A program made the translations under genes and the position numbers. 14,363 nt of DNA from a virus (taxonomy: Duplodnaviria > Heunggongvirae > Uroviricota > Caudoviricetes), in IMG/VR virus record IMGVR_UViG_2681813233_000009; one strand, 5' to 3'. Shown in pieces: positions 1 through 14,106 of this stretch. A model generated the notes under the pieces. That model was not told the DNA's origin, did not search any database, and worked only from the letters and a program-made list of their open reading frames with translations. The first letter of the stretch is position 1. The number at the start of each line of letters is the position of its first letter.

Positions 1-20
1 TCTGGATAATGCCAGCGTAG
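1..20. repeat. attL-side copy of att core (direct repeat; may extend left of the window)
   Basis: Identical to 14033-14052; sequences diverge immediately 3' of ...gcgtag (tcgtggcg here versus ggaagtca at the right copy). Confidence 0.7.
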
Positions 21-107: not shown

Positions 108-1463
108 ATGGGACACAAAACCATACGCCACACCATTAAACGTAACGGAATCTATTACGTTCGCTTCCGTCTGCCTGATAACAAGTTTTTCCGTAAGTCT
201 TTAGAGACTGACAGCCACACCCAGGCGCAGTTGCTCATGTCTTTTGCTTCTCCTGTAATCCCTCTGGTTCAACGTGGAACCATTCACCCGGATCAGTTTT
301 GTCAACGTCTTTCTGATTTCAGCAACCGCTTAAAGCAACAGAATGAACACTGGCTGGTTCAACAATTTCTCAGTGATGAACGGCGCAATCTTCAGCCGAT
401 AGTTGTTCAGGAATACCGCGAGGTTGTTGCGCCTTCAGAAGATGAGGAAGAACAAACAGAAGCACAGTCAAAGGATGTGTTAACACTGGCTGGCGCTTGG
501 AATATGTACAAAAAGGAAAAAGCCCAAAACTGGACGAAGGCAATTTCACAGGCCAATGAGCGCTTTATGGAAGTCATGTTCATTGTCGTGGGTGCATCTA
601 AAGATGTAACCACGATTACCAAGCAAGACATTAAACAGGTAATGGAGGTTGTTGAAAACTTGCCTAAGCGTGTTGTACAGCCTTACCGTTCGATGACGGT
701 TCAGCAACTGATCGAGTGTGATGATGTTCCGCCTGAAGATTTGGTTGGCGCTGAGTCTATCCACAAGCATTTGAAGATTTACAAATCGTTGTTTAAAACC
801 TTCCTGACAGACAATAAAGATATTCTGGAGAAGTCTCCGACTGATGGAGTGGTCGCCTCACCATCTAAAGCAAGGTTTGGTGCATATAGCGCAGCAGAAA
901 TGAGAAAGTTTGTGGGGTGGGCGCTCAAGCAGCCTGACGGGTGGCAGAAGTGGATCACTTTGCTGTTGGCGTACACGGGAGCCAGAAGAGGGGAGATCGC
1001 CAAGCTGGAGAAATCACAGATCAAATTTGATGAAGATAGCCAGCGGCACTATCTCCTGATCGCGGAAGGAGGGCAGGGTAAAACCGAGAACGCTACAAGG
1101 CAGGTGGCGATCCATCCCAAACTCATCGAGTGGGGGTTCCTCGAATTTGTAAATCGCCAATGGAAAGAGAAAATCTTCTCGCCTGTGTCGGGTAAGAACA
1201 TGCCGAAGATCGGCAAAGTTTTAGCCGATGTCCGCGATCAGCTTGGTATTCCGTACCTTGATGATTATGGGCAGCGGCGGCTAGTTCACAGTTTCCGGCA
1301 TACCATGATTTCAACCTGTTTAGCAGGCTGGGTTGGTAATCTGGCACACCTGCAACAGGTGGTAGGCCATGAGAAAAGCGGTTCAGGGATCACTAGACGC
1401 TACCTACACACGTTCCCTTTATCAACGATCTGTTATGTGATTGATGGGTTGGGTTGGGAATAG
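108..1463 (+). CDS. int: Tyrosine site-specific integrase (phage integrase family), 451 aa
   Basis: ATG at 108 with GAGG 8 nt upstream; C-terminal catalytic motifs readable in the translation: ...TGARRGEIAKL... (Arg), HSFRHT (His-x-x-Arg), VGHEKSG (His), TRRYLH (Tyr nucleophile); sits next to the att repeat. Confidence 0.9.
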   Translation: MGHKTIRHTIKRNGIYYVRFRLPDNKFFRKSLETDSHTQAQLLMSFASPVIPLVQRGTIHPDQFCQRLSDFSNRLKQQNEHWLVQQFLSDERRNLQPIVVQEYREVVAPSEDEEEQTEAQSKDVLTLAGAWNMYKKEKAQNWTKAISQANERFMEVMFIVVGASKDVTTITKQDIKQVMEVVENLPKRVVQPYRSMTVQQLIECDDVPPEDLVGAESIHKHLKIYKSLFKTFLTDNKDILEKSPTDGVVASPSKARFGAYSAAEMRKFVGWALKQPDGWQKWITLLLAYTGARRGEIAKLEKSQIKFDEDSQRHYLLIAEGGQGKTENATRQVAIHPKLIEWGFLEFVNRQWKEKIFSPVSGKNMPKIGKVLADVRDQLGIPYLDDYGQRRLVHSFRHTMISTCLAGWVGNLAHLQQVVGHEKSGSGITRRYLHTFPLSTICYVIDGLGWE

Positions 1464-1555: not shown

Positions 1556-2578
1556 CTATTCGGAAGTGACTTGGCTTTGCTTTTTTATCGTTCTGGTTTT
1601 CAACATTTCAATCTGGCCAGCTTCGGTTAATGACCAGAAAGTATTCATGCTGCCATTGGTGGTTTTTAAATATTCAATTTTTATCAAACCATATGCCCTA
1701 AATTGCACTCCTATCGTTTTAAGGTCTTGAGAAGATACTTTTGCTGATGTGCCTCCCTTGCCTGCGACCTTTTGAGCGCTTTTGGCAATTGTGTATGATA
1801 CGCTTGATTCAGTATAATATTGAGTGAGATAGGGGGAGATTGAGTGAAAAATATCCTTCCATTTCATTTTCACGGACCAGTGTTTTGTTCCACCGGGATC
1901 ATACCCGATTCGAGGAAAGGTGGACTCACATCTAAATTCAAAATCATCATCAAAGTCAGCCAGATCCAGATCAAGTGTTTGACTAAGATTACTTGTGGCC
2001 TTGGCTAGTTCACTTTTTAACCATTCATTCTCTTTTTGTAAATCAACCATAGCCCGTAAATCAGTTTCAGAAGACGTTAGGTTGGCTCTTACCCATCCGA
2101 TTGCTGGATAAGTTTTCATCGTTTTACTCATACTTAAAGCAACCAACCCGGGTAAATCTTTGGCTGTTGCCCATGTTTTCCTGAGACGATTGGTTGAGGC
2201 CTTCTCTATAAATGCAGCTAGCTTCTCTCTGAGTTCAGAATCTTTTTCAGATTTGGCTAAAGGTAGATTTTCCGGATTCTCATGTACCAAAACAACGACG
2301 CGTAAACCTTTTGAAACTGCGTAATCGAATTCCTTTTCCGTGTAACTTAAACCATCTTCCGCGACAGAGCCATAACGACCACCAATGATCAGCAGATAAT
2401 AATCACAGTCATCAATTACTTTTTTTATGAACTCCCATTGGCCTTCATCGATTGCTGGGAACAACTCCATGCCTGCTGGAATGCAATCCATTTCCATCAG
2501 AGTTTGTATGACGTGTTTTCGTTCTTCTTCTAAATCCGTAAAAGTTGAACTTACGAAAACCTGGTAACGTTTATCCAT
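1556..2578 (-). CDS. Cargo protein, 340 aa, with N-terminal DUF4062-like motif ([16 protein letters not shown]); candidate defense or abortive-infection protein
   Basis: ATG at 2576-2578 (minus) with AAGGGA RBS; uninterrupted 340-codon ORF; visibly more AT-rich than neighbouring genes; N-terminal FVSSTF-DL-EER motif matches my recollection of the DUF4062 family; central coiled-coil-like segment ([28 protein letters not shown]). Domain assignment not verified by HMM. Confidence 0.8.
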
Positions 2579-2584
2579 TTTTAT

Positions 2585-2616
2585 CCCTTAAAAGAGGAAG
2601 GGGCATTAGCCCCTTC
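2585..2616 (-). terminator. Putative intrinsic terminator or attenuator between the small Cys-rich ORF and the cargo gene
   Basis: 8-bp GC-rich stem gaaggggc/gccccttc (2597-2604 with 2609-2616), loop atta; on the minus-strand RNA it is followed by CCUCUUUU, which overlaps the RBS of the downstream cargo gene. Confidence 0.4.
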
Positions 2617-2624
2617 ATTCAACA

Positions 2625-2891
2625 TTAACCAGCGTGACGGTAGGATTCACGCACACCATCACGATAACCATCAGCGAACGCTGCTTGAGGACTTTTGTGG
2701 CGAACGGTTCCCGCCTGGCTATCAGGTAAGGCGGCTAAGTCTACCCAAACCTGACCCGTGCGAGCCAAGCCAGCGCGGTAACCCTGATCGTAAGCGCAGC
2801 CGCAACATTTATGGCGACCTTCACCACCTTGATCGTGAGGTAAGCTGATGAAAAGAGTATTGTAACGGTGTGACTGTTTACAAATGGTCAT
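2625..2891 (-). CDS. Small Cys-rich hypothetical protein, 88 aa (MTICKQSHRYNTLFISLPHDQGGEGRHKCCGCAYDQGY...)
   Basis: Internal ATG at 2889-2891 (minus) preceded by a strong AAGGAG RBS at 6-nt spacing; the longer track ORF (to 3014) has no RBS. GC-richer than the adjacent cargo gene. No family recognised. Confidence 0.5.
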   Translation of the reverse strand: MTICKQSHRYNTLFISLPHDQGGEGRHKCCGCAYDQGYRAGLARTGQVWVDLAALPDSQAGTVRHKSPQAAFADGYRDGVRESYRHAG

Positions 2892-3571
2892 GCAATGCTC
2901 CTTATGAGCGTTCATTTTAAGGTTTACATGATCCTCTTTGCCTGGCACAATCAAGCCGTCAGAAATGAAGGCAAGGCTAAGATTCATACGAGTTTGGCGA
3001 CTCCTATTGGTCATGCTTTGTAAGCCGGGTTCGTGAAAATGAATCCGGTTTTTTTATGCCTAAAAATCAGGCATGGCACTACATGTGGGGGTGGTCAATC
3101 AATGGTGGCCCCACATAGACGATATTCTAGTGATGATTCTTTTCTGCACAAGGGTTGATTTTGACGTTAAATTGAGGTTGTGAAAGGGTAAAAATGCAAA
3201 ACCCTGCACAGCATAAGGCTTGGAAGACATGTCAATGATTAAGAAAAAAAAATCAAAATTTGATCGAGTGCTGATTTCTTCAACGGGAGGTCAGAATTGC
3301 GCGACATGATGTCGCGTAATCTTTATAAGAATAATGAATGGCATTAGTCGTTTTTGATGGTCTCTTGTAACATATAGTTAACATATAGATGTTCGTGAAG
3401 GGAGAAAGGCGCGAAAGGTAAATGTTATCTGGATAGTCTACCAATGCCTGTACCAGTACGAAAAGAGCGCTAATCATACCGAACTTAATCTCATAAAGGT
3501 TTTCACGAGAGCGAAGGACGTTAACGCTAGATTGCGAAACGAAACATTTCATTCTCTTCAATCTTTGGGTA

Positions 3572-3622: not shown

Positions 3623-3811
3623 TTACTTCTTTTGACGCTGTTTAGCGATCATAACGTTAAGCGCGTATTCAAAACCGTGTTGCGATTCCAAACGGCTAAA
3701 CGTCACGTTACACAGGCCCAACTCTCTACACAGTGCTTTACGGTTTACGACCTCCGCCGCGCCAGATACATAGACTTGACCAGCGCCGGGGATATTGATT
3801 GAAACTTTCAT
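3623..3811 (-). CDS. Hypothetical small protein, 62 aa, last gene of the capsid operon
   Basis: ATG at 3809-3811 (minus) with GAGGTG upstream; co-directional with the capsid gene and followed by the terminator at 3572-3610. The overlapping plus-strand ORF 3614-3802 lacks this context. Confidence 0.45.
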   Translation of the reverse strand: MKVSINIPGAGQVYVSGAAEVVNRKALCRELGLCNVTFSRLESQHGFEYALNVMIAKQRQKK

Positions 3812-3903: not shown

Positions 3904-4923
3904 TTACTTCAGCTTGACGTTCAGCATGTAGTTCGGGCGCAGGTTCAGAGGAATGAAGCTCGCCTCTTGGTGAACGGTCACCATGCCGTAACGGTCAGTC
4001 ATTACTTTTTGGTAGTAAGGGCTGATCACACCTTTAGCGGAGATATCCTGATTACGTGAAGCCGGGCCGCGTACCAGTTTGAACGGGTTACGATCCGCTG
4101 CACTGAACTTTGGAACGAACAGGCCGGAACCTGCCGCGATTTCGTAGCGGTCATCGTCCGCCAGAATGAAAGTAATGTTGCCAATGCTGAAGGAGTCATA
4201 ACCCGCAGTGTTAACCGGGATCAGAGCGCCTTTTGCAGCCTCCGCCACTTTGTTGGTGATCAGGCTGGTTACTTCTGGGTGGCTCGCCAGAACGTCATAC
4301 AGATCCGGGGAGCAGAAGCAATAGAAGCGGTCCAGATAGGAGCGGCTCGCGCCGTACTCTTTAACCAACATGCGGCGAATCTTCGCAAGCTGTGCATAGA
4401 CGTTAGCGCCTGCTGAACCGTCGAGGTCGAAACTCAGCGGAGCAGTACCAAACACAGCGTTAAAATCTACGTCGCCGTCATCCGTTTTAGCCGCTTTCGC
4501 TTCCTGCTTGAACAGGGCGCGGGCCAGTGTGCTTTCAACTGTTTCCAGATGATAGTTACGCATACGGATAGCTTTATCAGCAATAACAGATGTGATCGCC
4601 TGAGCCTGATCCGGGTTAGCCGGGCTTACCAGGCCTTGCCAGTCAGCGGTTTTTACATCCGCCTCAGTGGCATAGTGTGGGATCTCCTGGTTACGCAGGA
4701 TGGTTTTATCCATCATGATCGCGTTAACTTCGGTGCCATAGCGGGCAACCTGCTCCAGTTCACTAACCTGAGTTTCCACAATATCCACAATCTGGGCGTT
4801 TGGAGTGGTTGAGTTAACATCGGAGAAGATACCCAGATCAGAGATCAGGTAATTACCTGCTGGTTGATCTTTGATCGCCGCTACAGTGTCCAGCTTTTCA
4901 AACTGTTTAAAATCAATAGCCAT
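3904..4923 (-). CDS. Putative phage major capsid protein, 339 aa (family not verified)
   Basis: ATG at 4921-4923 (minus), AGGAA RBS; starts 12 bp after the stop of the upstream small gene (small-gene/capsid-gene arrangement as in lambda D-E); A/D/S/T-rich composition typical of virion proteins. Capsid assignment is by context and gestalt, not by alignment. Confidence 0.6.
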   Translation of the reverse strand: MAIDFKQFEKLDTVAAIKDQPAGNYLISDLGIFSDVNSTTPNAQIVDIVETQVSELEQVARYGTEVNAIMMDKTILRNQEIPHYATEADVKTADWQGLVSPANPDQAQAITSVIADKAIRMRNYHLETVESTLARALFKQEAKAAKTDDGDVDFNAVFGTAPLSFDLDGSAGANVYAQLAKIRRMLVKEYGASRSYLDRFYCFCSPDLYDVLASHPEVTSLITNKVAEAAKGALIPVNTAGYDSFSIGNITFILADDDRYEIAAGSGLFVPKFSAADRNPFKLVRGPASRNQDISAKGVISPYYQKVMTDRYGMVTVHQEASFIPLNLRPNYMLNVKLK

Positions 4924-4935
4924 TGTGTGATTTCC

Positions 4936-5307
4936 TTATGCTTTGAAGTAATCGGCGTTGATAGCCAGGCGAATATCACCGGAGGCTGTCAGCGCTTCCA
5001 GTGCGGCTTTTTTGCTCGCGGCGTCTTTAGCACGTAGGGCAAAATCGGTAATCACAACATGGCGATCCACGATAACCAGCGTTTTAGTCTTGCCATCGGC
5101 GGACATATTGGAAAGGTTAATGATCGGCTTGCCAGCTTCAGCGGCGGCGGAGTCGAACAGGGCAAAAGTTTTGCTGTCCAGAATATCGCCACAGTAGACG
5201 TCAGCCGGGAGGCTTGGGGCGGTTACTTCGGTGCGGTCAAACAGGCTGGAGGCGTAGTTGACGATTACGTCACCTTGCGTTACCGGGTAGCGCTCGGAAG
5301 TTTTCAT
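4936..5307 (-). CDS. Putative head decoration or capsid-associated protein, 123 aa
   Basis: ATG at 5305-5307 (minus) with AAGGAAAA RBS; the track ORF extends to 5451 but lacks an RBS there; tightly coupled (12 bp) to the downstream capsid gene. Confidence 0.5.
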   Translation of the reverse strand: MKTSERYPVTQGDVIVNYASSLFDRTEVTAPSLPADVYCGDILDSKTFALFDSAAAEAGKPIINLSNMSADGKTKTLVIVDRHVVITDFALRAKDAASKKAALEALTASGDIRLAINADYFKA

Positions 5308-5437
5308 AAAGGTTTTCCTTATGGAGGGTTTTAGACGTGGAGAGAGTCCACAGGATGATCCGGCGTTGCACCGAATATAAGGACCGCCACAGAGGACAAT
5401 CCGAATTGTTGGAAGATGGGAGGCCGTGGATTGAATA

Positions 5438-5467
5438 GAAGAGGGCGGCATCCGCGCCGCCCTTTCT
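5438..5467 (-). terminator. GC hairpin with flanking U-rich tracts upstream of the capsid operon (possible leader terminator)
   Basis: 7-bp stem gggcggc/gccgccc (5443-5449 with 5456-5462), loop atccgc; tttct follows on plus, and tcttctatt follows on the minus RNA; lies about 135 bp upstream of the decoration-gene start. Confidence 0.4.
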
Positions 5468-6551
5468 AATCTGGCTCTCTCTCACCCTCGCGGGTGGGGA
5501 AGGATATTTATCCTTTTGTGTGGATACTTGCCGCCCCTGGTGGCGTCACGTCGAATAGCACCAACCTTTTGGCAAATACCCACAAAAAAGAACCCGGCTG
5601 GAGGAACCGGGGTGGACAATGTAACTTACTGTATGATCACTTGTTTTCCTGTGTAGCCTCAGAGCCTTACATGATTTGCTTTCATGGTTCAGCAAAGAAG
5701 CCACAGAGGAAAACGGGCACCCTGAACGCGCCCGGAAACCATCGACGCAAATCAATAGTTTATCGTTGAGACCAGGTAACCAGCCCGGCCCAACTGTGAC
5801 CCCGTGGAGGGTCGATACAATTGAAGGAGATTCGCTTGTATTCTGAAGAGCCGCAGTTAGCGACGCTTTAGAATAGGGCCTGTGGCGCAAGCACTATGAT
5901 TAGAGGCGTTTTGAATCGTAGGAGTGAAACAATCGGCGGAACTTGAGGAGAGGACCGCACACAAAGCATTCTGGCAAGTGGAGTTGAAAGAACACTTTGG
6001 GTGAGGGCCGGGGCGGGGGAGAAGCCGCCCGGCTCACTCAGTACAGATCCTAATTGCACACGTTGCGACTCTGTACAGGTGGGGGGCGTGACAAGCTGCA
6101 AAACGGTAATTTCGATATCCTCGCCACACCCCACACCATGTATATTAGTTTAACACGAATGATTATCATTTGCAATAAAAATTAATTGCATTGTGTTGAG
6201 TCTTATGATATTGGCGGCCACACACGTGACGGATCAGATCTGCATTAATTTTTATTAGTGAGTGGTCTGACTCAGGGAGGGCTATGTGTCCCAAAAGACA
6301 CACGAAGTAATAATAGATATATAAGACCTCGCTACGCTCGCCCTCCGGGTCCGTCTTATTGATCTTATATAATAACTTCATTCAATAACTAATTGTTTTC
6401 ACAATTAATCATTTCATTCGTTATTATATGATCTTAAAACCTTCTCGCCCTTTGGGCTTACCAGGTTTTAGGCCGGGGCCTATTTCCCCACAATGTAGAG
6501 TCTCGCCTGTGTGGCTCATCTCCCGGGGGGCATTTTGAAACAAGGGTGTAC

Positions 6552-6612
6552 TGACAAAATGTCACAACGTGTTATGACAGATTGGCACAACGTGTTATGA
6601 CAAAATGTCACA
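6552..6612. promoter_or_regulatory. Cluster of dyad-symmetric repeats (operator- or iteron-like)
   Basis: 17-mer cacaacgtgttatgaca occurs twice (6563-6579 and 6586-6602), 6 bp apart; 15-mer tgacaaaatgtcaca occurs twice (6552-6566 and 6598-6612); each unit is itself a near-palindrome (TGACA-aaa-TGTCA; TGTCAcAACG/tGTTaTGACA). Confidence 0.5.
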
Positions 6613-7052
6613 TAATAAGATAAGTATATAAAACACCCTTAAAAGACAAACACCTAGGGCCAGGTCAAGATCTTAAAGAGATTGAGGGTGAATTATTGAT
6701 TGAACAATCAAGAGATCAGACTCTTTAGGAAAGAGCCTTACAGGCTCGCCTCCCTTTTGGGGCAATCGCAGAAACAGAAACCGCAACGCGGTTTTCTTTT
6801 CTGCTCTTTGGGAACACCGGAACGATGTGAAGGTGACATCTGGGCGGCGGGGTGGGGTGCCCGGCGCGGAGTGATACACAGTACAGAACCACAACCCACA
6901 GGAACCAACCTAAACGCGCCTCTGTGGCGCTCTCTCATATGCAGACACGGAAACACCTTATAAACACCCTGCGCCTCACTGAGAGCGTTACAGCGGCTTT
7001 CTATGCCTCTAGCACAATAAACAACTGAGCGCAAGATAAATCAAGAAAGTTG

Positions 7053-7081
7053 TTGCGAATCATTGTCAAATAGTGTAAAAT
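7053..7081 (+). promoter_or_regulatory. Candidate sigma70 promoter for the plus-strand operon
   Basis: TTGCGA (7053-7058), 17-bp spacer, TAAAAT (7076-7081), about 75 bp upstream of the ATG at 7156. Read by eye only. Confidence 0.3.
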
Positions 7082-7155
7082 AGATACTGTGATGAGGTAT
7101 TTATTCGAATATATAGATCCCCATCATACTATAACAAACATGAAAGGAGATTGCA

Positions 7156-7581
7156 ATGAGTATTTACCTCGATGTTGAAAAAATGGTTGAACGTGTCGAT
7201 CAGCGTGACCTGACCCGTAAGACCCTGACAGAAACCCGTAGCCGAATGAAAGCCGCCGGACGTATGGGAGAAGTTGAAGCGATTACGCAGGCCCTTGAAA
7301 TGACCAAATCAAAAGCATCCGGCGTCATGCGACAGTCTCAACGTATCGCTGCAAAGATCACCGAGATGGACGCAGAGAAAGCACTTGAAGTTAAAGCAGC
7401 CGTTTCGCTGTTCGCTTCCAAGTCTACAGACATGCAAGCCTCCATTGTGCTGGCGTTCCAATCCCTCTTTGAGGCTAAAGGCGTCCCGATGGAATACGAC
7501 GAAGTGATGGCTTTTATCATGCTGCAAGCGGCGGATCAGTTTGAGCGTATCACCGGAGAGTTGCCCGTTATCGTTCACTAA
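7156..7581 (+). CDS. Hypothetical protein, 141 aa
   Basis: ATG with AAAGGAGA RBS; first gene of a co-directional, tightly packed gene string; no family recognised. Confidence 0.7.
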   Translation: MSIYLDVEKMVERVDQRDLTRKTLTETRSRMKAAGRMGEVEAITQALEMTKSKASGVMRQSQRIAAKITEMDAEKALEVKAAVSLFASKSTDMQASIVLAFQSLFEAKGVPMEYDEVMAFIMLQAADQFERITGELPVIVH

Positions 7582-7610
7582 TTATTCATTTACTTTTTGG
7601 AGAGGAAACA

Positions 7611-7862
7611 ATGAGCAAATATCAGCCGTATGTTGATTTGAGTGATTCCCCTGTGTTGTCGGCGTATGCACAGCAGACGATCAACCAGTTGGACCCAACC
7701 CTGTACGATGACATTTACGAAATGTTGAAGCAGGTTAGTCCCTCCAAGTTGGTGACGATTGGCAACCCGGCGATCACCGCCCCGGCGTCATGGTGGGGTG
7801 ATTGGTTCGGCCTCAACCTCACCGCTGAAGACATCGCAGAATTACAGGAGATTGATCTCTAA
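7611..7862 (+). CDS. Hypothetical protein, 83 aa
   Basis: ATG at 7611 with GGAGAGGA RBS; its stop overlaps the next start (TAATG). Confidence 0.65.
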   Translation: MSKYQPYVDLSDSPVLSAYAQQTINQLDPTLYDDIYEMLKQVSPSKLVTIGNPAITAPASWWGDWFGLNLTAEDIAELQEIDL

Positions 7863-8041
7863 TGCAGATTGAATTTTCCCCCGAAGTGGCGGATCAGCTT
7901 TTTGAGTTGGCCCGCACAAGGAAGCACGGCTCCGCCTACGCAATCGTAAGAAAAGCAGTTAAGCAGTATTTGGATTCAGTTGAAGCTATTAACCCTGTTG
8001 AAGAGGATTTAACCCATGACCGCAGCACCCGCAGCAAGTAA
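7862..8041 (+). CDS. Small ribbon-helix-helix-like DNA-binding protein, 59 aa (absent from the ORF track)
   Basis: ATG at 7862-7864 overlapping the upstream stop (TAATG); translation MQIEFSPEVADQLFELARTRKHGSAYAIVRKAVKQYLDSVEAINPVEEDLTHDRSTRSK has an RHH-like strand-helix-Gly-helix pattern; overlaps the next gene by 26 nt in another frame. Confidence 0.5.
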   Translation: MQIEFSPEVADQLFELARTRKHGSAYAIVRKAVKQYLDSVEAINPVEEDLTHDRSTRSK

Positions 8042-8681
8042 GCCGTTTACCGCAATCCCGCATGACCTTGCGGACATTGAACAGATCAGCGGTAAGGCGT
8101 TTACCATGAACATGGTTTACACCTACAGCCTGATCAAATCCTTCCAGGACAATGGGCAAACGGCTTATTTCTCACAGGAGCTTTTGGCCCGTCGCCTGGG
8201 GGCATCCATCCGCAGCGTGATCCGCCTCCTGGCGGAGATGGTGGAAATGGGATTGATCAATAGTACCGGGCGCGTGGGTGGCAAGACCTGCCATTACACA
8301 GTTAACCCGATCACCCCGGAAATGGTGGGAACCCCTGAAGCCGCCAAACCTGAAGTAACCAAACCAACCGCAGCACCCCAACCCGTGGAGACCGTAGAGA
8401 ATGCAGGAAGTAACCAGCCTGGAATTGTTAAGTGTGGATCTGAAAGCGTACATAGAAGCCGCCCGGCGTCGTCTGGAGTTGCTCCTGTGGACCACAGCGG
8501 GGGCGCTGTTCGTCCCGCTCCTGTCCCTGTGCCAGTAGAGCAGGGGGCCGCAAACGATGATTTACGTAACCCTGTTATTAATTATGTGGCTGGCTCTAAT
8601 GTGATGATGGTCAACGGTTTGCCTGTTGAATATCTGGAGCCAGAAGAAAGCGGCATTGATCAGTTTGGTGATGCCTTCTAA
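8016..8681 (+). CDS. Putative winged-helix DNA-binding protein, 221 aa (replication initiator or regulator candidate)
   Basis: ATG with GAGGA upstream; HTH/winged-helix-like segment FSQELLARRLGASIRSVIRLLAEMVEMGLINSTGRVGG; Pro/Ala-rich linker and acidic C-terminal tail (EPEESGIDQFGDAF). Confidence 0.7.
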   Translation: MTAAPAASKPFTAIPHDLADIEQISGKAFTMNMVYTYSLIKSFQDNGQTAYFSQELLARRLGASIRSVIRLLAEMVEMGLINSTGRVGGKTCHYTVNPITPEMVGTPEAAKPEVTKPTAAPQPVETVENAGSNQPGIVKCGSESVHRSRPASSGVAPVDHSGGAVRPAPVPVPVEQGAANDDLRNPVINYVAGSNVMMVNGLPVEYLEPEESGIDQFGDAF

Positions 8682-8757
8682 AAATCTGCGATTGATTTCC
8701 CACTAATAACACTCTACACAAAACCCCCGCCGTTTACAACCCTTTGGAGATTCTCGC

Positions 8758-9324
8758 ATGAATAACTTTATCACTACTAAATTCAACGCCTTAACCTCCG
8801 AAGAGGAAGCCGCAGTAAATGCACTGGCGGAGAAATTAGCAGCAAACAAGCCCCGTCGGATTATGGATGAGAGCCATTTGACCCCGGATCAAATCCTGAA
8901 GATCAAGCGGGCCTGTATTCAGGGCCACAGCGCTAAAGCCATCCAAGCGGCCTTTAACGTGTCGCTGGCTTACGTCCTGAGAGTAAAGCGCTCCCACAAC
9001 CCTAAGAAGTACCAGAAGACCCCGCTCACCTTGCCAGAAAAGGCAGTGTTGGCCCAGCAGATGGACGCCGATAATTTGAGCTTGGATAAAATGGCGGAAC
9101 TTCTGGGGATCAACAGTAAGATGGTTTCCCTACTTCTTACCCAACCTTCACCCCGTTACCTGGTGGAGCAAATGCTCCCGTATGACCAAGTTTTACAGAA
9201 CCTCCGCAGCGCCCGCTACGTGGAAAGCCCTGTATACAAAAAAGGGACGAGTATGCGCCGTGTGCGACTGATCGTTTCTGAAGCTCGTCAGCAGGCCCGC
9301 CAGGCAATCATTAAATCCCGGTAA
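8758..9324 (+). CDS. Putative HTH-containing protein, 188 aa
   Basis: ATG with GGAGA RBS 8 nt upstream; two HTH-like segments (LTPDQILKIKRACIQGHSAKAIQAAFNVSLAYVLRVK; LSLDKMAELLGINSKMVSLLL). Function unverified. Confidence 0.65.
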   Translation: MNNFITTKFNALTSEEEAAVNALAEKLAANKPRRIMDESHLTPDQILKIKRACIQGHSAKAIQAAFNVSLAYVLRVKRSHNPKKYQKTPLTLPEKAVLAQQMDADNLSLDKMAELLGINSKMVSLLLTQPSPRYLVEQMLPYDQVLQNLRSARYVESPVYKKGTSMRRVRLIVSEARQQARQAIIKSR

Positions 9325-9495
9325 TTATGTCCAACCCAACGGAATGGGACCTAAAGGATTACTTAGGTTCCAAACTGGTTAAGCGTCAGACAAGACTCTC
9401 TAACTTTCTCGCCCCCTTCCTCTATATCCCCTTTAAGCCCGCTTCCCTCCTCCTGTGGGTAGTGGTAATCACTTTCATTATAAGGACTCTCTCAA

Positions 9496-9870
9496 ATGCA
9501 CCCCTTTGAACTACTGAAACGCCAGCTTGACGAAATGGCGAAATCCCGCCAGGTAGAGCAGGCCCAAGAGGAAGCCGCCGCCCGTGAACTCCGCAAGGCA
9601 CAGGCCGATCTCTCCCTGGACGAGGCTATTGCTCTGTACGGTACACAGTTGGAAGCCTCCACCGATGCAGCAGACAGCGCCCAGAAGGGCCGCGCCATTA
9701 AGAGCCGGGGAATTGCTCTGTGTCACAAGGATCAGGGATTCAGCGCCAACGGTCGCCCTGTGTCTCTCCTGACCAAATCAGCAGATCTGCCAGCAGGTCA
9801 CCGCCGGGTAATCATCAACAAAGCAGCAGGGCGCACCCTGAAGGCTATCAATCTGGAAGGGGCTGAATAA
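9496..9870 (+). CDS. Hypothetical protein, 124 aa, translationally coupled to the tape-measure-like gene
   Basis: ATG at 9496 with AAGGA RBS; its stop overlaps the next ATG (TAATG at 9868-9872). Confidence 0.6.
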   Translation: MHPFELLKRQLDEMAKSRQVEQAQEEAAARELRKAQADLSLDEAIALYGTQLEASTDAADSAQKGRAIKSRGIALCHKDQGFSANGRPVSLLTKSADLPAGHRRVIINKAAGRTLKAINLEGAE

Positions 9871-11990
9871 TGAGCGGTAACGTCATCATCACGAAGACCG
9901 TAAACAGAACTACGTTCACCACGGACGGGGCCAGCTATAAGAAGACGGTTGACCGTATCAAACAGGTGGGGAAAGAGTGGGATAAAGTCTCCTCTAAAAT
10001 GAAGCCTCTACGGATGAAATTTGAGGAAAACGCCTACACCAAGATCCGCCGGAAACAGCAGGACGCCACCGCAAAAGCAGCACTGGCAGAAGCCAAAGCC
10101 AAAGCCGCAGCGGAAGCCAAAGCGGCAAAAGCCCAACTAGCAGCGGAGCGTAAACTCCAGACAATCCGCGCTAAAGCTATTCGCTTTAATACCGCAGCGG
10201 CTAACGCCAACGTTACCCCGGCCCAACGTGCTGGACACCTCCAGGAGTTTGGACAGCTTACGCGCCAGTATCACGCCGGGTCTATGGCATTACAGGAATA
10301 TAACGCCCGTGTGTCACGCCTTCAGCAAACCATGCGCCAACAAGGCCGGGTAGGCATGAGGGGAGCCACAATTCCCGTAACCGCCAAAGTAAACAAACTG
10401 GATACCTCCATGATCGAGGGTGCAGGCGGGGCGATCACAATTGCCGCCACTGTGGCACTCTCCGGCAAGATCATGACTACCGGACAGGATTTTGAATCCG
10501 CTATGTCTGGTCTTACAGCGATCACCGGTTCCACAGAAAAAGCCGGGAAAGAGTTTGATTATCTTCGTGAACAGTCCAACCGTCTGGGGCTGGACCTTCT
10601 GAAAACTTCAAAAGACTATACGCAGTTTGCCGCCGCTGTTGGGGACAAACTCCCTAAAGACCAGATGCGATCCATCTTTGAGGGTGCTTCAGAGTGGGGC
10701 CTTGTTACTGGTGCATCCGCAGATGAGCAATCACGTGCGTTAAAGGCCCTTAACCAGATGATGTCTAAGGGTACGGTCATGAGTGAAGAACTTAAAGGCC
10801 AGTTGTCCGAGGCTCTCCCCGGCTCTGTGGGTCTGTTCGTTAAAGCCCTTAACGACATGAAAGGCGTTACCAACCTGACCGAGCAAGATTTGTTTAAGCT
10901 GATGGAAGACGGGAAGCTGTTCTCTAAGGACATCCTCCCACATGTGGCTAAACAGATGAAGGAAGCGGCCCGGCAGGGTGGCGCACTTGATAAGGCGATG
11001 AAGTCCAACCGGGCATCATGGCAGCGCCTCAATACCAGTATGCAGAACGCTATGAATGTGTTTTTCACTTCTGGCTTCGGTAACTCCCTTACCAACGCTT
11101 TCGACTCAATCAGCGCCGCTATTGACGGATCTGGTGGAGCCTTTGAGATGTTCGGGCATATCGCCGGGAAAATCGTTGAAGGTGCCACAGATGCGTTTAC
11201 AGAGTTGCATGACACTGTGATCCTGACCTTCCGCATTATTGAGTATTACGCCGCCAAAATGGGGATCAGTGGGGAGCAGCTCAAAGCCTGGGGAGAAATG
11301 GCAGCATATGCCGCCGGGGTGGCTCTGTTCGCTGGCTCTGTTTACAAGTTGGGCGGGGCTTTCAAGTGGGTCCTCACCATGCTGAACCCTCTTACCAAGT
11401 TGTTGGGAGTCATGAAGGGGATCGCCGCTATTGGTGGCATTGAGGCCGCTTCTGAAGCTCTGAGCGACGGTAAGCCAGGTAAAGACGGCCAGCCGGGCAA
11501 ACCGGGAACCCCATCAAAGAACACCAAGCCGATCGGCGCGGGCCGTGGCGTTAACTTTGGCCTCCCGGCTATTATCGCCGCTGTATCTCTGAATGACCGC
11601 CTTGATCAGATTCAGGCAGACCCGGAAGCGTTTAAGCGAAAGGTACAGGAGAATAATGATCGGCCTACGCTGTGGACTGACATCATGGAAGCATTCTCCG
11701 GCAGTTGGTACGAAAAGCAGCAGAACGCAAACCAGCAGGCAGCACAGACCGCAGCACTCGATCAGACTGTTCGTGTTGCTGTTCCAACCTTCATCCCTCC
11801 AACCACAGCGACGGTTACAGGTGGCTACGGTAATCCACTGATGACGCCGCCAGCGTGGCTAAACCAGCCGCTAAACGTGAGCGTTAATGTGAAGGTGCAA
11901 GATGGACAGGTGAAAAACCTTGTGCAATCTGAGATTGAACGTAATGAACAGGCGGCATTTAACATGCTGATGCAGGGCGGGCCAAACTAA
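9870..11990 (+). CDS. Phage tail tape-measure-like protein, 706 aa
   Basis: N-terminal Ala/Lys-rich coiled-coil (AKAALAEAKAKAAAEAKAAKAQLAAERKL); central segment LKGQLSEALPGSVGLFVKALNDMKGVTNLTEQDLFKLMEDGKLFSKDILPHVAKQMKEAAR resembles the conserved tape-measure motif as I recall it; hydrophobic Gly/Ala-rich segments; collagen-like GKPGKDGQPGKPGTP; followed by a terminator. Confidence 0.8.
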   Translation: MSGNVIITKTVNRTTFTTDGASYKKTVDRIKQVGKEWDKVSSKMKPLRMKFEENAYTKIRRKQQDATAKAALAEAKAKAAAEAKAAKAQLAAERKLQTIRAKAIRFNTAAANANVTPAQRAGHLQEFGQLTRQYHAGSMALQEYNARVSRLQQTMRQQGRVGMRGATIPVTAKVNKLDTSMIEGAGGAITIAATVALSGKIMTTGQDFESAMSGLTAITGSTEKAGKEFDYLREQSNRLGLDLLKTSKDYTQFAAAVGDKLPKDQMRSIFEGASEWGLVTGASADEQSRALKALNQMMSKGTVMSEELKGQLSEALPGSVGLFVKALNDMKGVTNLTEQDLFKLMEDGKLFSKDILPHVAKQMKEAARQGGALDKAMKSNRASWQRLNTSMQNAMNVFFTSGFGNSLTNAFDSISAAIDGSGGAFEMFGHIAGKIVEGATDAFTELHDTVILTFRIIEYYAAKMGISGEQLKAWGEMAAYAAGVALFAGSVYKLGGAFKWVLTMLNPLTKLLGVMKGIAAIGGIEAASEALSDGKPGKDGQPGKPGTPSKNTKPIGAGRGVNFGLPAIIAAVSLNDRLDQIQADPEAFKRKVQENNDRPTLWTDIMEAFSGSWYEKQQNANQQAAQTAALDQTVRVAVPTFIPPTTATVTGGYGNPLMTPPAWLNQPLNVSVNVKVQDGQVKNLVQSEIERNEQAAFNMLMQGGPN

Positions 11991-12004
11991 CCGCCAATAT
12001 AATA

Positions 12005-12031
12005 AAGGCTCCCCTAGTGGGAGCCTTTTCT
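12005..12031 (+). terminator. Rho-independent terminator after the tape-measure-like gene
   Basis: 7-bp stem ggctccc/gggagcc (12006-12012 with 12018-12024), loop ctagt, followed by ttttctctttt. Confidence 0.6.
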
Positions 12032-12060
12032 CTTTTATACATTTCTAATGTCCTGGCTTT

Positions 12061-12627
12061 TCATAACAGATCCGCTATTGAATATTTATCACTAAAATCA
12101 TCTACTTTGCGTTGTGTGGCCCCAATGTAATGAAGCGTACTGGATAACGATTTGTGCCCTAATGCTTTACTAATTACAGCTATATCCTCCCCATTGTCAT
12201 AACCAATCGTTGGTTTACTCTTCCTCATGCTGTGGGTCGAAAGATTCAGCCCCAGCTTTTCCCCGGCGTAGCTAATTTCCTCATGCAATTTGGAGCGGCT
12301 CACAGGTTTTCCCTTGCTCCTGTGGCTGTCCAACTGTAAGAGGTACACATTATCAGGGTTAGCCTCTCTCCGGGCCGCTATGATGCGTTTAGCGGTATCG
12401 GTAAGCCTCACCCGGACAGATTCACCCGTTTTCTGTTGGGACAGGACAAGGTGATCGCCTTTGATGTCGGCATAACGGATAGAGCGCAGATCCGACACCC
12501 TCAGCATTAATTCATAACCCAATAACCAGGCGTCACGGTACAGCGTCAGCCCCTTGCCCTGTTTGAGTAGCTCAACTGCTACCGCTTTCACTTCCTGAAC
12601 TGATTTACAGCCCTCTACGAAATTCAT
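12061..12627 (-). CDS. Small tyrosine recombinase, catalytic domain only (FimB/FimE-sized), 188 aa
   Basis: ATG at 12625-12627 (minus) with GGAGAG RBS; the track ORF begins at an upstream TTG without an RBS; motifs LRVSDLRSIRYADI (Arg), HSMRKS (His-x-x-Arg), LGHKSLSSTLHY (His and Tyr). Confidence 0.8.
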   Translation of the reverse strand: MNFVEGCKSVQEVKAVAVELLKQGKGLTLYRDAWLLGYELMLRVSDLRSIRYADIKGDHLVLSQQKTGESVRVRLTDTAKRIIAARREANPDNVYLLQLDSHRSKGKPVSRSKLHEEISYAGEKLGLNLSTHSMRKSKPTIGYDNGEDIAVISKALGHKSLSSTLHYIGATQRKVDDFSDKYSIADLL

Positions 12628-13020
12628 TCTGTACTCTCCAGAACCTAACTGTGATAAATTTTTGATCAAAAACAAGCACTTGTAAACGACAAAAATTATT
12701 AATTTTAAGTTGTGTCTTTTTAGTGAATTAAATCGGGTTTAATCGCGTTTAATGGCAGAGTAATGACCCGGCAGGGGAGGTAATGGGCTGTTTATGTGGG
12801 TAAAAGATGGTTGCTTAATGTACTATTACCACAAGACGGGTAAGGTGATTTGACTCCCTCAGTTCCTTTAAGCTACTGTATTTATGGGAAATTAATTATT
12901 GTTTCTTTATGGTGTTGCCTGGCAAATTTTCAGTTTACCCTCAAGAAAAATCCCCATCTTTTTTATTCTCCACATGAGAATAAATTTTGTTTGCAAATAT
13001 CACTCATTCTCAACTCCAGT

Positions 13021-13199
13021 CGGGGCGAAAGCCTTCGCCCCTTAAAGGGCCTTTGTAGGCTCGCTCTCTGTATGCGCCTGTGGCGCTACCACTCTCAACC
13101 CTGTGGGTTTGTATGGCTTGCCACAAGATAACGCGCCACAGGCGCACAGGGGAGGCGGACGCCTCCTGGGTGGCCCGGCTGGGCCACTGGTCCACAGGG
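13021..13199. other. GC-rich structured non-coding segment (multiple hairpins and a paired palindrome)
   Basis: Hairpin ggggcgaa/ttcgcccc (13022-13041); palindromes gcgcctgtggcgc (13074-13086) and its exact reverse complement gcgccacaggcgc (13133-13145); hairpins ggaggcg..cgcctcc and ggccc..gggcc (13150-13185); the only ORFs here lack RBS and context. Confidence 0.35.
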
Positions 13200-13981: not shown

Positions 13982-14106
13982 GACTCGGGGTGCCCTTCTG
14001 CGTGAAGGCTGAGAAATACCCGTATCACCTGATCTGGATAATGCCAGCGTAGGGAAGTCACGGACCACCAGGTCATTGCTTCTTCACGTTATGGCAGGAG
14101 CAAACT
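13982..14106 (+). promoter_or_regulatory. TPP (THI-box) riboswitch of thiM: aptamer plus expression platform
   Basis: Sequence gactcggggtgcccttctgcgtgaaggctgagaaatacccgtatcacctgatctggataatgccagcgtagggaag matches the E. coli thiM TPP aptamer as I recall it (including the conserved CUGAGA element); it runs into the thiM RBS (aggag at 14096-14100). Confidence 0.9.
14033..14052. repeat. attR-side copy of att core, lying inside the TPP aptamer
   Basis: Identical to positions 1-20. Confidence 0.7.

What the first reader, a model, noticed from the sequence alone, without database searches (positions are those of the whole stretch)
9870..11990. Tape-measure-like protein without any other tail genes, with a collagen-like motif
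The 706-aa protein has the look of a tail tape measure (coiled coil, conserved central motif, hydrophobic Gly-rich segments), yet no tail tube, chaperone pair with frameshift, baseplate or fibre genes accompany it, and it is preceded by DNA-binding proteins. It may be a remnant, or a stand-alone tape measure that alters helper-phage tail length or DNA entry; the GKPGKDGQPGKPGTP repeat is unusual.
Basis: partly seen in the sequence, partly recalled or inferred. Interest (0 to 1): 0.5.

Follow-up and report, generated by a model that had tools for sequence, protein, structure and literature searches.

The report
Phage satellite with its own tape-measure
The 706-residue protein is a real, intact phage tail tape-measure protein carried by a small integrated element that also encodes its own capsid protein but no tail, portal or packaging genes. 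This is the gene set expected of a phage "satellite" that borrows the rest of the virus particle from a large lytic helper phage and slots in its own, shorter tail ruler.

Summary
The ORF at 9870-11990 is real and is a true tape-measure protein (TMP). It scores above the curated cut-offs of PF20155 and TIGR02675. It is colinear end to end with the structurally solved TMP of Pectobacterium phage phiTE (PDB 9cuy), but about 105 residues shorter.

It is not a prophage remnant. The window is a ~14 kb element bounded by att repeats in the thiM TPP riboswitch. The same gene order recurs in E. coli, Pectobacterium, Serratia, Citrobacter koseri and Pantoea loci:
- decoration-like gene and major capsid gene
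- a ~2 kb non-coding stretch
- regulators and a replication-initiator-like HTH protein
- a 113-167 aa protein followed by the TMP
- a short recombinase

The TMP is full length in all but one of the fully examined loci and is under purifying selection (dN/dS 0.11-0.25). Its only relatives inside complete tail modules are TMPs of virulent ~140-150 kb Vequintavirinae myoviruses, at 28-38% identity.

The gene just upstream (9496-9870) carries the N-terminal motif of the same phages' scaffold-position head protein.

Best reading: an apparently undescribed satellite family of Vequintavirinae-like helpers that builds chimeric tails with its own TMP, as shown experimentally for Vibrio PLEs (Nature 2026).

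The "collagen-like" motif is a short, poorly conserved linker.

The parts
1..20 (.). attL (partial): the right-hand 20 nt of a direct repeat that is 71 nt long where the left flank can be read (L001/L002); the window starts inside it
   Evidence: Exact repeat of 14033-14052. In relatives L001/L002 the full 71-nt copy of window 13982-14052 lies at the left island border next to rcnR.
108..1463 (+). Large tyrosine integrase (451 aa)
   Evidence: PF00589 30 bits (cut-off 27.1); phrog_1 integrase E 2.9e-28. It sits at one end of the element in the family members whose ends were captured.
1556..3014 (-). Variable cargo: DUF4062 protein (1556-2578) and a 129-aa phrog_3941 protein (2625-3014)
   Evidence: PF13271 E 1.7e-30. 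The same slot holds an AAA_15/OLD-like 'ATP-dependent nuclease' in L001, L002 and L005. No PADLOC hit.
3623..3811 (-). Conserved 62-aa ORF directly downstream of the capsid gene
   Evidence: A 59-63 aa gene sits at this position in L006, L007, L014-L018, L025 and L026. No family hit.
3904..4923 (-). The element's own major capsid protein (339 aa, protein-E type)
   Evidence: PF03864 61 bits (cut-off 22.9) over residues 15-333 of 339. dN/dS 0.13-0.17. 22% identity to phage UPEC06 MCP (pairwise E 3e-7). Best PDB match 9zbi_A belongs to the same capsid clade as the phiTE and phi92 capsid proteins.
4936..5307 (-). Head-decoration-like protein (123 aa as annotated in relatives; a longer ORF runs to 5451)
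   Evidence: Weak PF02924 HDPD hit E 2e-4, below cut-off; phrog_2680 head decoration E 0.008. Same position (directly upstream of the MCP gene) as the decoration gene of Vequintavirinae. Codon periodicity of substitutions.
5308..7155 (.). Conserved non-coding stretch: minus-strand promoter block (about 6128-6188), structured minus-strand leader with terminator-like hairpins (about 5340-6100), and iteron-like repeats
   Evidence: A gene-less 1.7-2.2 kb gap here in all twelve family loci whose gene tables were read, except that L026 has one 160-aa call inside it. No codon periodicity. Consensus folding stronger on the minus strand. Promoter block shown.
6546..6612 (.). Three 21-nt iteron/operator-like repeats spaced 23 nt apart
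   Evidence: This is the least conserved part of the gap across the family, while the initiator-like HTH gene has the highest dN/dS.
7156..9324 (+). Rightward operon, proximal part: p141, p83, p59, HTH_36/replication-initiator-like protein (8016-8681), DNA-binding-like p188 (8758-9324)
   Evidence: PF13730 E 1.5e-8; phrog_391/270/428 replication initiation; phrog_664 DNA binding. The p141-like, small-ORF and initiator-like/HTH genes keep their order across the family; a p188-like gene (162-189 aa) is present in some members only.
9496..9870 (+). p124: an N-terminal long helix, then a motif (res 63-121) copied from the N-terminus of the helper-type scaffold-position head protein (PF26210 / phrog_2970). 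Stop overlaps the TMP start.
   Evidence: 54% identity to residues 7-64 of the UPEC06 364-aa protein (E 3e-16). phrog_2970 E 1e-15. The precomputed PF26210 hit is on family homologues of p124 (L005-L007 and all P0121-series clusters), not on the window protein itself. The motif holds most of the invariant columns in 32 family members. AF2: helix 3-62 at pLDDT ~90, motif at pLDDT ~55.
9870..11990 (+). Tape-measure protein (706 aa), the finding
   Evidence: E 1.8e-83 to PDB 9cuy_W, which is the phiTE TMP. Colinear with the phiTE TMP: N-terminal 50 residues 56% identical, last 6 residues 5/6 identical, net 105 residues shorter. dN/dS 0.11-0.25.
11469..11513 (+). GKPGKDGQPGKPGTP linker inside the TMP (the 'collagen-like' motif)
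   Evidence: Sequence; poor conservation; predicted coil.
12004..12028 (.). Bidirectional intrinsic-terminator-like hairpin ending the TMP operon
   Evidence: 10-bp stem with 6 G-C pairs and T-runs on both strands, 14 nt after the TMP stop.
12061..12675 (-). Short tyrosine recombinase (188 aa in relatives; 204 aa from the TTG start)
   Evidence: PF00589 61 bits; phrog_216. Next to the TMP in all eleven family loci whose sequence extends past the TMP gene, though its orientation varies. Most conserved gene of the element (98-99% aa identity).
13982..14052 (.). attR: the 71-nt repeat, lying inside the thiM TPP riboswitch (13976-14072)

Best explanation
The window is an integrated, helper-dependent phage satellite of about 14 kb, a member of a conserved Enterobacterales family. 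It encodes its own small-capsid shell (major capsid protein plus a decoration-like protein) and a replication/regulation module. It also carries two proteins derived from Vequintavirinae-type virulent myoviruses: p124, which carries the N-terminal motif of the helper's scaffold-position head protein, and a tape-measure protein.

Proposed mechanism (inferred, not shown here). During infection by a compatible rV5/phiTE-like helper, the satellite TMP replaces the helper TMP as the core on which helper baseplate hub, tube and sheath assemble.
- Its conserved C-terminus docks into the helper hub and puncturing device.
- Its conserved N-terminus sits at the head-proximal end.
- Because it is about 105 residues shorter, tails should be roughly 13-16 nm shorter.
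- These chimeric tails join satellite capsids that have taken up the helper portal, possibly recruited through p124.

Shown here: TMP family membership, colinearity with a solved TMP, satellite-like context, purifying selection, the family-wide architecture, and the Vequintavirinae affinity of both proteins.

Inferred: helper identity, incorporation into tails, the tail-length effect, and the role of p124.
For: (1) True TMP: PF20155 and TIGR02675 above cut-off, phrog_5255 E 2.7e-104. E 1.8e-83 to PDB 9cuy_W, which is exactly the phiTE TMP.

(2) End-to-end colinearity with the phiTE and UPEC06 TMPs (811 and 807 aa). Against phiTE, residues 1-50 are 56% identical and the C-terminal tip FNML(M/I)QGGPN is conserved (the last 6 residues are 5/6 identical). 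Nearly all of the length difference comes from deletions in the N-proximal region, after island residues 46-129. In phiTE the C-terminal fragment is buried in the hub/puncturing complex (PMC11972413).

(3) Mobile-element context: att repeats, integrase, a variable cargo slot, iterons plus an initiator-like HTH protein, its own MCP (PF03864) and a decoration-like gene. No portal, terminase or tail genes.

(4) The same architecture occurs in E. coli, Pectobacterium, Serratia, C. koseri, Pantoea and metagenome loci, at different att sites. Family TMPs are 686-718 aa, against 807-811 aa in the two phage TMPs compared.

(5) Purifying selection: dN/dS 0.11-0.25 at dS 0.39-0.61.

(6) Relatives inside complete tail modules are only in virulent Vequintavirinae-type phages, at 28-38% identity. 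Of all window ORFs, only p124 and the TMP hit these phages at E <= 0.01 in tblastn. Two further hits came from shadow ORFs antisense to the TMP gene, which merely mirror TMP conservation.

(7) The p124 motif is 54-82% identical to the N-terminus of the protein encoded between prohead protease and decoration/MCP genes in those phages. It is translationally coupled to the TMP gene.

(8) Precedent: PLEs encode TMPs that are selectively built into PLE virions with ICP1 tail parts. The PLE11 TMP is 95 aa shorter than the helper's and gives tails 10 nm shorter. Putative tmp genes were also noted in other putative satellites (PMC12987554). EPIP satellites also carry a TMP (PMC12822802).
Against: - No experiment links this element to any phage.
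- Identity to every sequenced phage TMP is only 28-38%, so compatibility with a particular helper is inferred.
- Unlike PLE, no tail assembly chaperone or hub protein was found in the element.
- No small terminase or recognisable pac/cos site was identified.
- The TMP lies in the operon with regulators and the replication protein, not with the capsid genes.
- A sister element in Pantoea cypripedii has MCP, decoration-like and PF26210 genes but no TMP. The TMP is therefore not essential to the wider lifestyle.
- In complete E. coli genomes the p124-TMP segment (9496-11990) was found in only 23 of 5426, and more than half of those copies are truncated, with an IS4-family transposase annotated at the same locus.
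- A helper-type promoter motif was not significantly enriched in the window.
Confidence: 0.55

Rival explanations
1. Interference-only decoy. The TMP is not used to build satellite particles. It acts as a dominant-negative competitor that captures helper hubs, tube and sheath into wrong-length or dead-end tails. This lowers the helper burst, so the element would be a defence function.
For: - The conserved termini that would dock to helper parts serve a decoy equally well.
- Tail assembly and TMPs are known targets of defences: Tab (PMC10884400) and Rta (PMC12987554).
- The element carries a variable defence-like cargo slot.
- No chaperone or hub gene accompanies the TMP.
Against: - The element also keeps its own capsid and decoration genes under purifying selection, which only makes sense if particles are made. 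Such particles need tails.
- In the one tested system, satellite TMPs are incorporated into satellite virions.
- This rival is not exclusive with the best explanation.
Confidence: 0.2
2. Deletion remnant of a prophage tail module, with no present function.
For: - Only one tail gene is present.
- Truncated copies, with an IS4-family transposase annotated at the same locus, exist in E. coli. One Serratia copy is split by an IS.
Against: - Full-length gene with dN/dS 0.11-0.25 at dS up to 0.6.
- The same tail-less architecture in about five genera and at different att sites.
- No relative at intermediate identity sits in a complete tail module. The tail-module relatives belong to virulent, non-integrating phages at 28-38% identity.
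Confidence: 0.04
3. A TMP-derived protein with a role other than tail ruler. Examples would be a DNA-entry or pilot protein that changes the route of genome delivery or evades superinfection exclusion without changing tail assembly, or an effector of a contractile injection system.
For: - TMPs take part in genome injection and are targets of exclusion systems (HK97 work cited in PMC11364771).
- TMP-related CIS effectors are reported (title and abstract start of PMC13277306; not read).
- The region between the TMP_3 domain and the C-terminal helix (about residues 560-650) varies most within the family.
Against: - It is colinear over the whole length with a bona fide tail TMP, including both docking termini.
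- No CIS genes are nearby.
- Any DNA-entry role would still require incorporation into a tail.
Confidence: 0.12
4. An autonomous miniature tailed phage.
For: It has its own capsid, decoration and TMP genes plus a replication module.
Against: No portal, terminase, protease, tube, sheath, baseplate, fibre or lysis gene was found in 14 kb. All ORFs of about 59 aa or more in the conserved core (3623-12675) were scanned. The remaining 1.8 kb is non-coding.
Confidence: 0.02

Closest known systems
[quoted passage not shown]
   Same: An integrated satellite of a large virulent myovirus that encodes its own TMP, shorter than the helper's (PLE11: 95 aa shorter; here about 105 aa shorter than the phiTE/UPEC06 TMPs). 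In PLE the satellite TMP is built into satellite virions with helper tube, sheath and baseplate.
   Different: - Different hosts (Enterobacterales against Vibrio) and a different inferred helper lineage (Vequintavirinae-like against ICP1).
- PLEs are described as hijacking and remodelling ICP1 coat proteins into small capsids (abstract of PMC10945586), whereas this element has its own MCP and decoration-like gene.
- PLE also encodes a chaperone and a hub protein, which were not found here.
- No sequence comparison with PLE proteins could be made.
Tape-measure protein of Pectobacterium phage phiTE (Certrevirus, Vequintavirinae; PDB 9cuy/9mjn; PMC11972413)
   Same: Same family and the same order of segments from the first to the last residue. 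The N-terminal 50 residues, the TMP_3 core and the C-terminal tip are conserved.
   Different: - 34% identity overall and 105 residues shorter.
- The deletions lie in the N-proximal region after island residues 46-129; they span and extend beyond the phiTE residues 60-180 that the authors map to the six-fold bundle near the connector.
- It lies in a tail-less chromosomal island rather than between the chaperone and baseplate genes of a 142 kb virulent phage.
[quoted passage not shown]
   Same: A satellite that makes its own capsid and relies on a helper for tails. [quoted passage not shown]
   Different: As I recall their definition, cf-PICIs encode a complete capsid and packaging set: portal, protease, connectors and terminase. 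None of these was found here.
EPIP satellites of Mycolicibacterium (bioRxiv 2025, PMC12822802)
   Same: Satellites reported with a major capsid protein and a TMP, and with tails of a different length from the helper's.
   Different: Actinobacterial. They have a serine integrase, a small terminase and head-tail adaptors. Their helper is a temperate siphovirus-type phage and their tails are longer, not shorter. No sequence relation was tested.
P4-like satellites of E. coli
   Same: A ~11-14 kb integrated enterobacterial satellite with an integrase, a variable defence-cargo hotspot and a helper myovirus.
   Different: By my recollection, P4 has no capsid gene (it resizes the P2 capsid with Sid and Psu) and no TMP. 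No Psu, Sid, Delta or primase family was hit here.

Membership tests
Phage tail tape-measure proteins (PF20155 TMP_3 / TIGR02675) | Profile match above the curated cut-off | tested here: met
   PF20155 93.1 bits against a cut-off of 41. TIGR02675 39.5 bits against 21.35. 17 PHROG families annotated as TMP, best E 2.7e-104.
Phage tail tape-measure proteins (PF20155 TMP_3 / TIGR02675) | Full-length colinearity with a TMP whose place in a tail is structurally shown | tested here: met
   E 1.8e-83 to 9cuy_W, which is the phiTE TMP. The alignment runs from residue 2 to the last residue.
Phage tail tape-measure proteins (PF20155 TMP_3 / TIGR02675) | Encoded within a tail module (after the chaperone genes, before hub/baseplate genes) | tested here: not met
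   No tail gene in the window or in the twelve family loci whose gene order was read.
Phage tail tape-measure proteins (PF20155 TMP_3 / TIGR02675) | Sits in the tail lumen and sets tail length | not testable with these tools
   Needs electron microscopy and mass spectrometry of particles. AF2 predicts a mostly helical protein, at low confidence.
Phage satellite (general) | Integrated element with att sites and an integrase, lacking a full virion gene set but carrying some morphogenesis genes | tested here: met
Phage satellite (general) | Mobilised and packaged only in the presence of a helper phage | not testable with these tools
   IMG/VR copies are predicted viral regions, not proof of packaging. 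The ~13.5 kb contigs are explained by assembly breaks at the att repeats.
cf-PICI | Encodes its own portal, protease, head-tail connectors and terminase in addition to the MCP | tested here: not met
   Only an MCP and a decoration-like gene were found; no hit to portal, terminase or protease families.
P4-like satellites | Psu, Sid, Delta and an alpha primase-helicase | tested here: not met
   No such Pfam or PHROG hits in any ORF.
PLE | Homology to the PLE core genes (large serine recombinase, RepA, TcaP and so on) and ICP1 as helper | not tested
The integrase here is a tyrosine recombinase and the hosts are Enterobacterales, so membership is unlikely. The resemblance is functional.
Collagen-like triple-helix repeat | A long, conserved run of G-X-Y triplets | tested here: not met
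   Five triplets at most. Among 120 TMPs compared, 37 have 5, 11 have 4, 70 have 3 and 2 have 2. The run is out of register in the main sister clade and is predicted as coil.

The most novel reading that the evidence does not exclude
This would be an undescribed family of Enterobacterales satellites that parasitise virulent Vequintavirinae (rV5/phiTE-like) myoviruses, working in three steps.
1. It builds a small capsid from its own major capsid and decoration proteins.
2. It recruits the helper's portal (or protease) through p124, a mimic of the helper scaffold's N-terminus.
3. It swaps in a tape measure about 105 residues shorter. This gives chimeric, shorter-tailed particles and possibly immunity to a satellite-encoded inhibitor of the helper's own TMP, as with Rta in PLE11.

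If so, it would give E. coli a tractable PLE-like system.
Probability: 0.35. Interest if true: 0.8.

Novelty: new variant of a known kind. Interest (0 to 1): 0.62.

Why it matters
Satellite-encoded tape measures were demonstrated only recently, and only in Vibrio cholerae PLEs. Why satellites rebuild tails is still open.

This family would extend the phenomenon to E. coli, Enterobacter, Cronobacter, Klebsiella, Citrobacter, Serratia, Pectobacterium and Pantoea. It would also extend it to a group of virulent phages (Vequintavirinae) that are widely isolated for therapy and biocontrol, where a resident satellite could reduce phage efficacy or spread its cargo genes.

It combines features not reported together:
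- its own capsid genes;
- no portal or terminase;
- a mimic of the helper scaffold's N-terminus;
- a shortened TMP.

The solved phiTE virion gives a structural frame for testing docking of the satellite TMP.

Tried and rejected
1. **Contig length as evidence of excision.** Many TMP-bearing contigs are about 13.4-14.4 kb. I rejected this as evidence of excised circles: L005, read in full, is a chromosomal piece running from inside the integrase to the thiM side, so the lengths are more simply explained by assembly breaks at or near the 71-nt att repeats.
2. **IMG/VR hits.** By their identifiers, at least two of the four come from isolate-genome predictions. None is proof of packaging.
3. **Recalled promoter motifs.** The rV5-type motif CTAAATAcCcc (from memory) occurs only twice in UPEC06 and never in the window. 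TATAAATA is also absent from the window.
4. **De novo helper promoter motif.** GTGNTAAAATA occurs 6 times in UPEC06 against 0.68 expected, 4 of them upstream of structural genes. In the window there are only 2 one-mismatch hits against 1.04 expected, which is not significant. One hit lies in the conserved promoter block, but that block also reads as an ordinary sigma-70 promoter.
5. **Invertase idea.** Inverted repeat I4 (11489-11507 / 13164-13182) pairs the collagen-motif DNA with a site beyond the short recombinase. It is 84% complementary, and by hand-check of the coordinates the minus-strand ORF beyond it is out of frame. I treated it as chance.
6. **p124 as the protein upstream of the phiTE TMP.** There is no similarity to phiTE_227. 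The match is to the head-module protein instead.
7. **PF26210 in the local Pfam copy.** It gave no hit. The assignment rests on precomputed annotations of family homologues and on PHROG and BLAST results for the window protein.
8. **Rfam on the non-coding stretch.** Nothing significant.
9. **PADLOC on cargo and core proteins.** No hits.
10. **AF2 of the TMP.** Mean pLDDT 39, so no fold search was run. AF2 of p124 was confident only for the N-terminal helix.
11. **L004 (Enterobacter sp. EA-1).** It has no long ORFs, probably a frameshift-rich assembly. It was used only for DNA colinearity.
12. **Decoration-like protein against the UPEC06 decoration protein.** No detectable similarity.


Full report
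**1. The observation**

The ORF 9870-11990 (+) encodes 706 residues. It matches PF20155 TMP_3 at 93.1 bits (cut-off 41; residues 200-396) and TIGR02675 at 39.5 bits (cut-off 21.35). It also matches 17 PHROG families annotated as tail-length tape measure, the best being phrog_5255 at E 2.7e-104 over residues 59-706.

The descriptive features hold up:
- Residues 61-115 are 75% A/K/E/Q/R.
- AF2 predicts helices at 20-111 and 117-157. Only the central domain reaches moderate confidence (pLDDT 56-76); the model as a whole has mean pLDDT 39.
- Moderately hydrophobic Gly/Ala-rich stretches lie at 177-206, 471-532 and 554-578, with a maximum Kyte-Doolittle 19-residue mean of 1.32.
- GKPGKDGQPGKPGTP is encoded at 11469-11513.

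No ORF in the window hits a tube, sheath, chaperone, baseplate, fibre, portal or terminase family. A bidirectional terminator-like hairpin (12004-12028) follows the stop codon.

**2. What the window is**

The first 20 nt of the window repeat exactly at 14033-14052. In related E. coli islands, a second copy of window 13982-14052 (71 nt) lies at the left border. So attR lies inside the thiM TPP riboswitch (13976-14072), and the window begins inside attL.

Related islands sit between rcnR and thiM in E. coli SCU-316 and H2. The element carries, in order:
- a large tyrosine integrase;
- a variable cargo slot, holding a DUF4062 protein here, an AAA_15/OLD-like nuclease in relatives, and RelA_SpoT elsewhere;
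- a protein-E-type major capsid protein (PF03864, 61 bits, nearly full length) with a decoration-like gene directly upstream;
- a ~1.8 kb non-coding stretch;
- a rightward operon of small proteins, an HTH_36/replication-initiator-like protein and a DNA-binding-like protein, then p124 and the TMP;
- a short tyrosine recombinase.

**3. Is it a remnant?**

No, for four reasons.
- Against the E. coli relatives L001 and L002, the TMP is full length (704 and 711 aa). Its dN/dS is 0.11-0.25 at dS 0.39-0.61, and the MCP gives 0.13-0.17.
- The same gene order, with a TMP of 686-718 aa, occurs in Pectobacterium odoriferum (L003), Serratia (L015), Citrobacter koseri (L016), Pantoea (L025, L026) and several metagenome contigs. 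Some are integrated at a different site, near yciO/rluB.
- TMP clusters at 74-95% identity are named from Enterobacter, Cronobacter, Klebsiella aerogenes, Citrobacter, Yokenella, Pluralibacter, Kluyvera, Pectobacterium and E. coli.
- Decay does occur. One Serratia copy is split by an IS. In 5426 complete E. coli genomes, only 23 carry p124-TMP DNA, 3 of them at 80% coverage or more by megablast, and more than half are truncated, with an IS4-family transposase annotated at the same locus.

**4. Where the TMP comes from**

In 50,697 phage records, the only matches covering 80% or more of the protein are TMPs of ~140-150 kb myoviruses of the Vequintavirinae type, at 28-30% identity. These include Serratia ChuuTotoro and Kashira and E. 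coli UPEC06, W70 and A73. Matches covering 55-62% at 36-38% identity are Certrevirus-type phages (CR3, CR8, phiTE, PBES 02).

The island TMP aligns with the phiTE TMP (811 aa) from residue 2 to the very last residue:
- The N-terminal 50 residues are 56% identical.
- The TMP_3 core is 46-48% identical.
- The last six residues are 5/6 identical, within the conserved tip FNML(M/I)QGGPN.
- The net 105-residue difference arises almost entirely from deletions after island residues 46-129.

PDB 9cuy_W, hit at E 1.8e-83, is exactly the phiTE TMP. In the phiTE virion, the C-terminal TMP fragment is buried in the hub and puncturing complex. Residues ~60-180 form a six-stranded bundle near the connector, and the tail is ~1020 Å long (PMC11972413).

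So the island protein keeps both docking ends and loses ruler length. Linear scaling predicts tails about 13-16 nm shorter (inference).

In the phage, the gene lies between the chaperone and baseplate genes. These phages are described as lytic (phiTE; PMC11972413), so a degraded prophage of this lineage is not a likely source.

**5. The gene in front**

The stop codon of p124 (9496-9870) overlaps the TMP start codon (TAATG).

Its residues 63-121 are 54% identical (E 3e-16) to residues 7-64 of a 364-aa UPEC06 protein, and up to 82% identical over 33 residues to homologues in 226 phage records. That phage protein (phrog_2970, PF26210 'Phage_phiTE_211') is encoded between the prohead protease (Peptidase_S78_2) and the decoration and MCP genes. 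This is the usual position of a scaffold gene. In phage CB7 virions it is detected only weakly, with 3 peptides and 14% coverage (PMC7344957).

In 32 island homologues, most of the invariant columns fall in this motif: KSRGIA..QG..AN.R...LL.K. AF2 gives a confident N-terminal helix (3-62) and a low-confidence motif region.

Of all window ORFs, only p124 and the TMP hit Vequintavirinae genomes at E <= 0.01 in tblastn. Two further hits came from shadow ORFs antisense to the TMP gene. The island MCP is a distant member of the same capsid clade: 22% identical to the UPEC06 MCP (E 3e-7).

I infer that p124 links satellite capsid assembly to a helper head component, either portal or protease. This is a hypothesis.

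**6. A sister element without a TMP**

Pantoea cypripedii carries two related elements side by side. The second has an MCP (26% identical to the window's), a decoration-like gene and a PF26210 protein (35% identical), but no TMP.

So p124-type proteins go with the capsid genes, and the TMP is an accessory of one branch.

**7. Comparison with what is known**

- Mathur, Boyd et al. (Nature 2026, PMC12987554) showed that PLEs encode TMPs, plus a chaperone and a hub protein, that are selectively built into PLE virions with ICP1 tail parts.
- The PLE11 TMP is 95 aa shorter than the helper's and gives tails 10 nm shorter. It lets PLE11 escape its own anti-TMP protein Rta.
- They also noted putative tmp genes in PLE-like elements and in some cf-PICIs.
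- EPIP satellites of Mycolicibacterium also carry a TMP.
- TMPs are targets of the defence proteins Tab and Rta.

The present family resembles PLE in logic but differs in several respects:
- It lives in Enterobacterales.
- It uses a tyrosine integrase.
- It has its own MCP and decoration-like gene.
- It has no detectable chaperone or hub gene.
- It has a scaffold-motif protein.

It fails the cf-PICI definition (no portal, terminase or protease) and the P4 definition. Full-text searches for Vequintavirinae or rV5 together with satellite found no description of it. The library is incomplete, so prior description cannot be excluded.

**8. The collagen-like motif**

The run is five G-X-Y triplets at most. 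Triplet-sized indels occur within the close clade, the register is lost in the ~76-78% identity clade, and the phage TMPs have a G/A/T linker there. AF2 predicts coil. I read it as a flexible low-complexity linker, not a collagen helix.

**9. Verdict**

The 'remnant' reading is rejected.

The 'stand-alone tape measure working with a helper' reading is the best explanation (about 0.55), resting on inference from homology, context and the PLE precedent. An interference-only role is the main rival.

Novelty: a new variant of a known kind.

Noticed in passing
window 5308-7155 (and the equivalent stretch in L001-L003, L005-L007, L014-L018, L025-L026): A 1.7-2.2 kb gene-less stretch separates the capsid genes from the rightward operon in all twelve family loci whose gene tables were read, although L026 has one 160-aa call inside it. 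Substitutions there show no codon periodicity, while the MCP and decoration genes do. Consensus folding is stronger on the minus strand across about 5340-6100 (z -4 to -10 against column shuffles). That region includes a long hairpin (about 5505-5585) with a few compensatory changes and several terminator-like hairpins. It may be a structured leader or antitermination region of the capsid operon, or a long non-coding RNA.
   Followed up: partly
window 6128-6188, minus strand: This is the most conserved block of the non-coding stretch. It reads as a sigma-70-type promoter (TTGCAA, 17 nt, TAAACT with TGT upstream) pointing at the capsid operon. Its spacer holds the palindrome AATGATAATCATT, which matches 14 of 19 positions of the Fur-box consensus as I recall it. 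Three family members have ATTCGTGTTAAAATA here, identical to a promoter-like site upstream of a tail gene in phage UPEC06. The similarity is not statistically supported.
   Followed up: partly
window 6546-6612: Three 21-nt repeats (GTGTnnTGACAnAnTGnCACA) spaced 23 nt apart. This is the least conserved part of the non-coding stretch across the family, while the initiator-like HTH gene (8016-8681) has the highest dN/dS (0.32-0.52). That pattern fits origin iterons co-varying with their initiator.
   Followed up: partly
window 12052-13253: The short tyrosine recombinase plus about 580 nt of non-coding DNA beside it is 93% identical to the Pectobacterium island, whereas the rest of the element is about 80% identical. 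The recombinase is 98-99% identical in protein among the E. coli islands. The reason for this extra conservation, and the role of a second recombinase, are unexplained.
   Followed up: no
window 13976-14072 and 1-20: The element integrates inside the thiM TPP riboswitch. The 71-nt att repeat duplicates the 3' part of the riboswitch, so the riboswitch next to thiM stays intact (Rfam 74.8 bits).
   Followed up: partly
window 1556-3014; L001 5628-7076; L016 14414-15526: This is a variable cargo slot, typical of satellite defence hotspots. It holds a DUF4062 protein plus a phrog_3941 protein here, an AAA_15/OLD-like ATP-dependent nuclease in other E. coli islands, and a RelA_SpoT protein in C. koseri. 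None of the window's cargo proteins hits PADLOC.
   Followed up: partly
L025 13071-20118 (Pantoea cypripedii CP024768): A second, more distant element lies in tandem with a typical family member. It has MCP, decoration-like and PF26210 genes all on one strand and no tape measure, so it is a TMP-less sister family.
   Followed up: partly
window 10616-11236, minus strand: A 206-aa antisense ORF lies inside the TMP gene. Its tblastn hits to phages fall on the strand opposite the phage TMP genes. It is therefore a shadow of TMP conservation, not a gene.
   Followed up: yes
L014 10776-14036; E. coli genomes H93-H105: Decayed copies exist. The Serratia TMP is split by an IS (DDE_Tnp_1). Twelve or more complete E. 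coli genomes keep only the last ~25% of the TMP gene, with an IS4-family transposase annotated at the same locus.
   Followed up: partly
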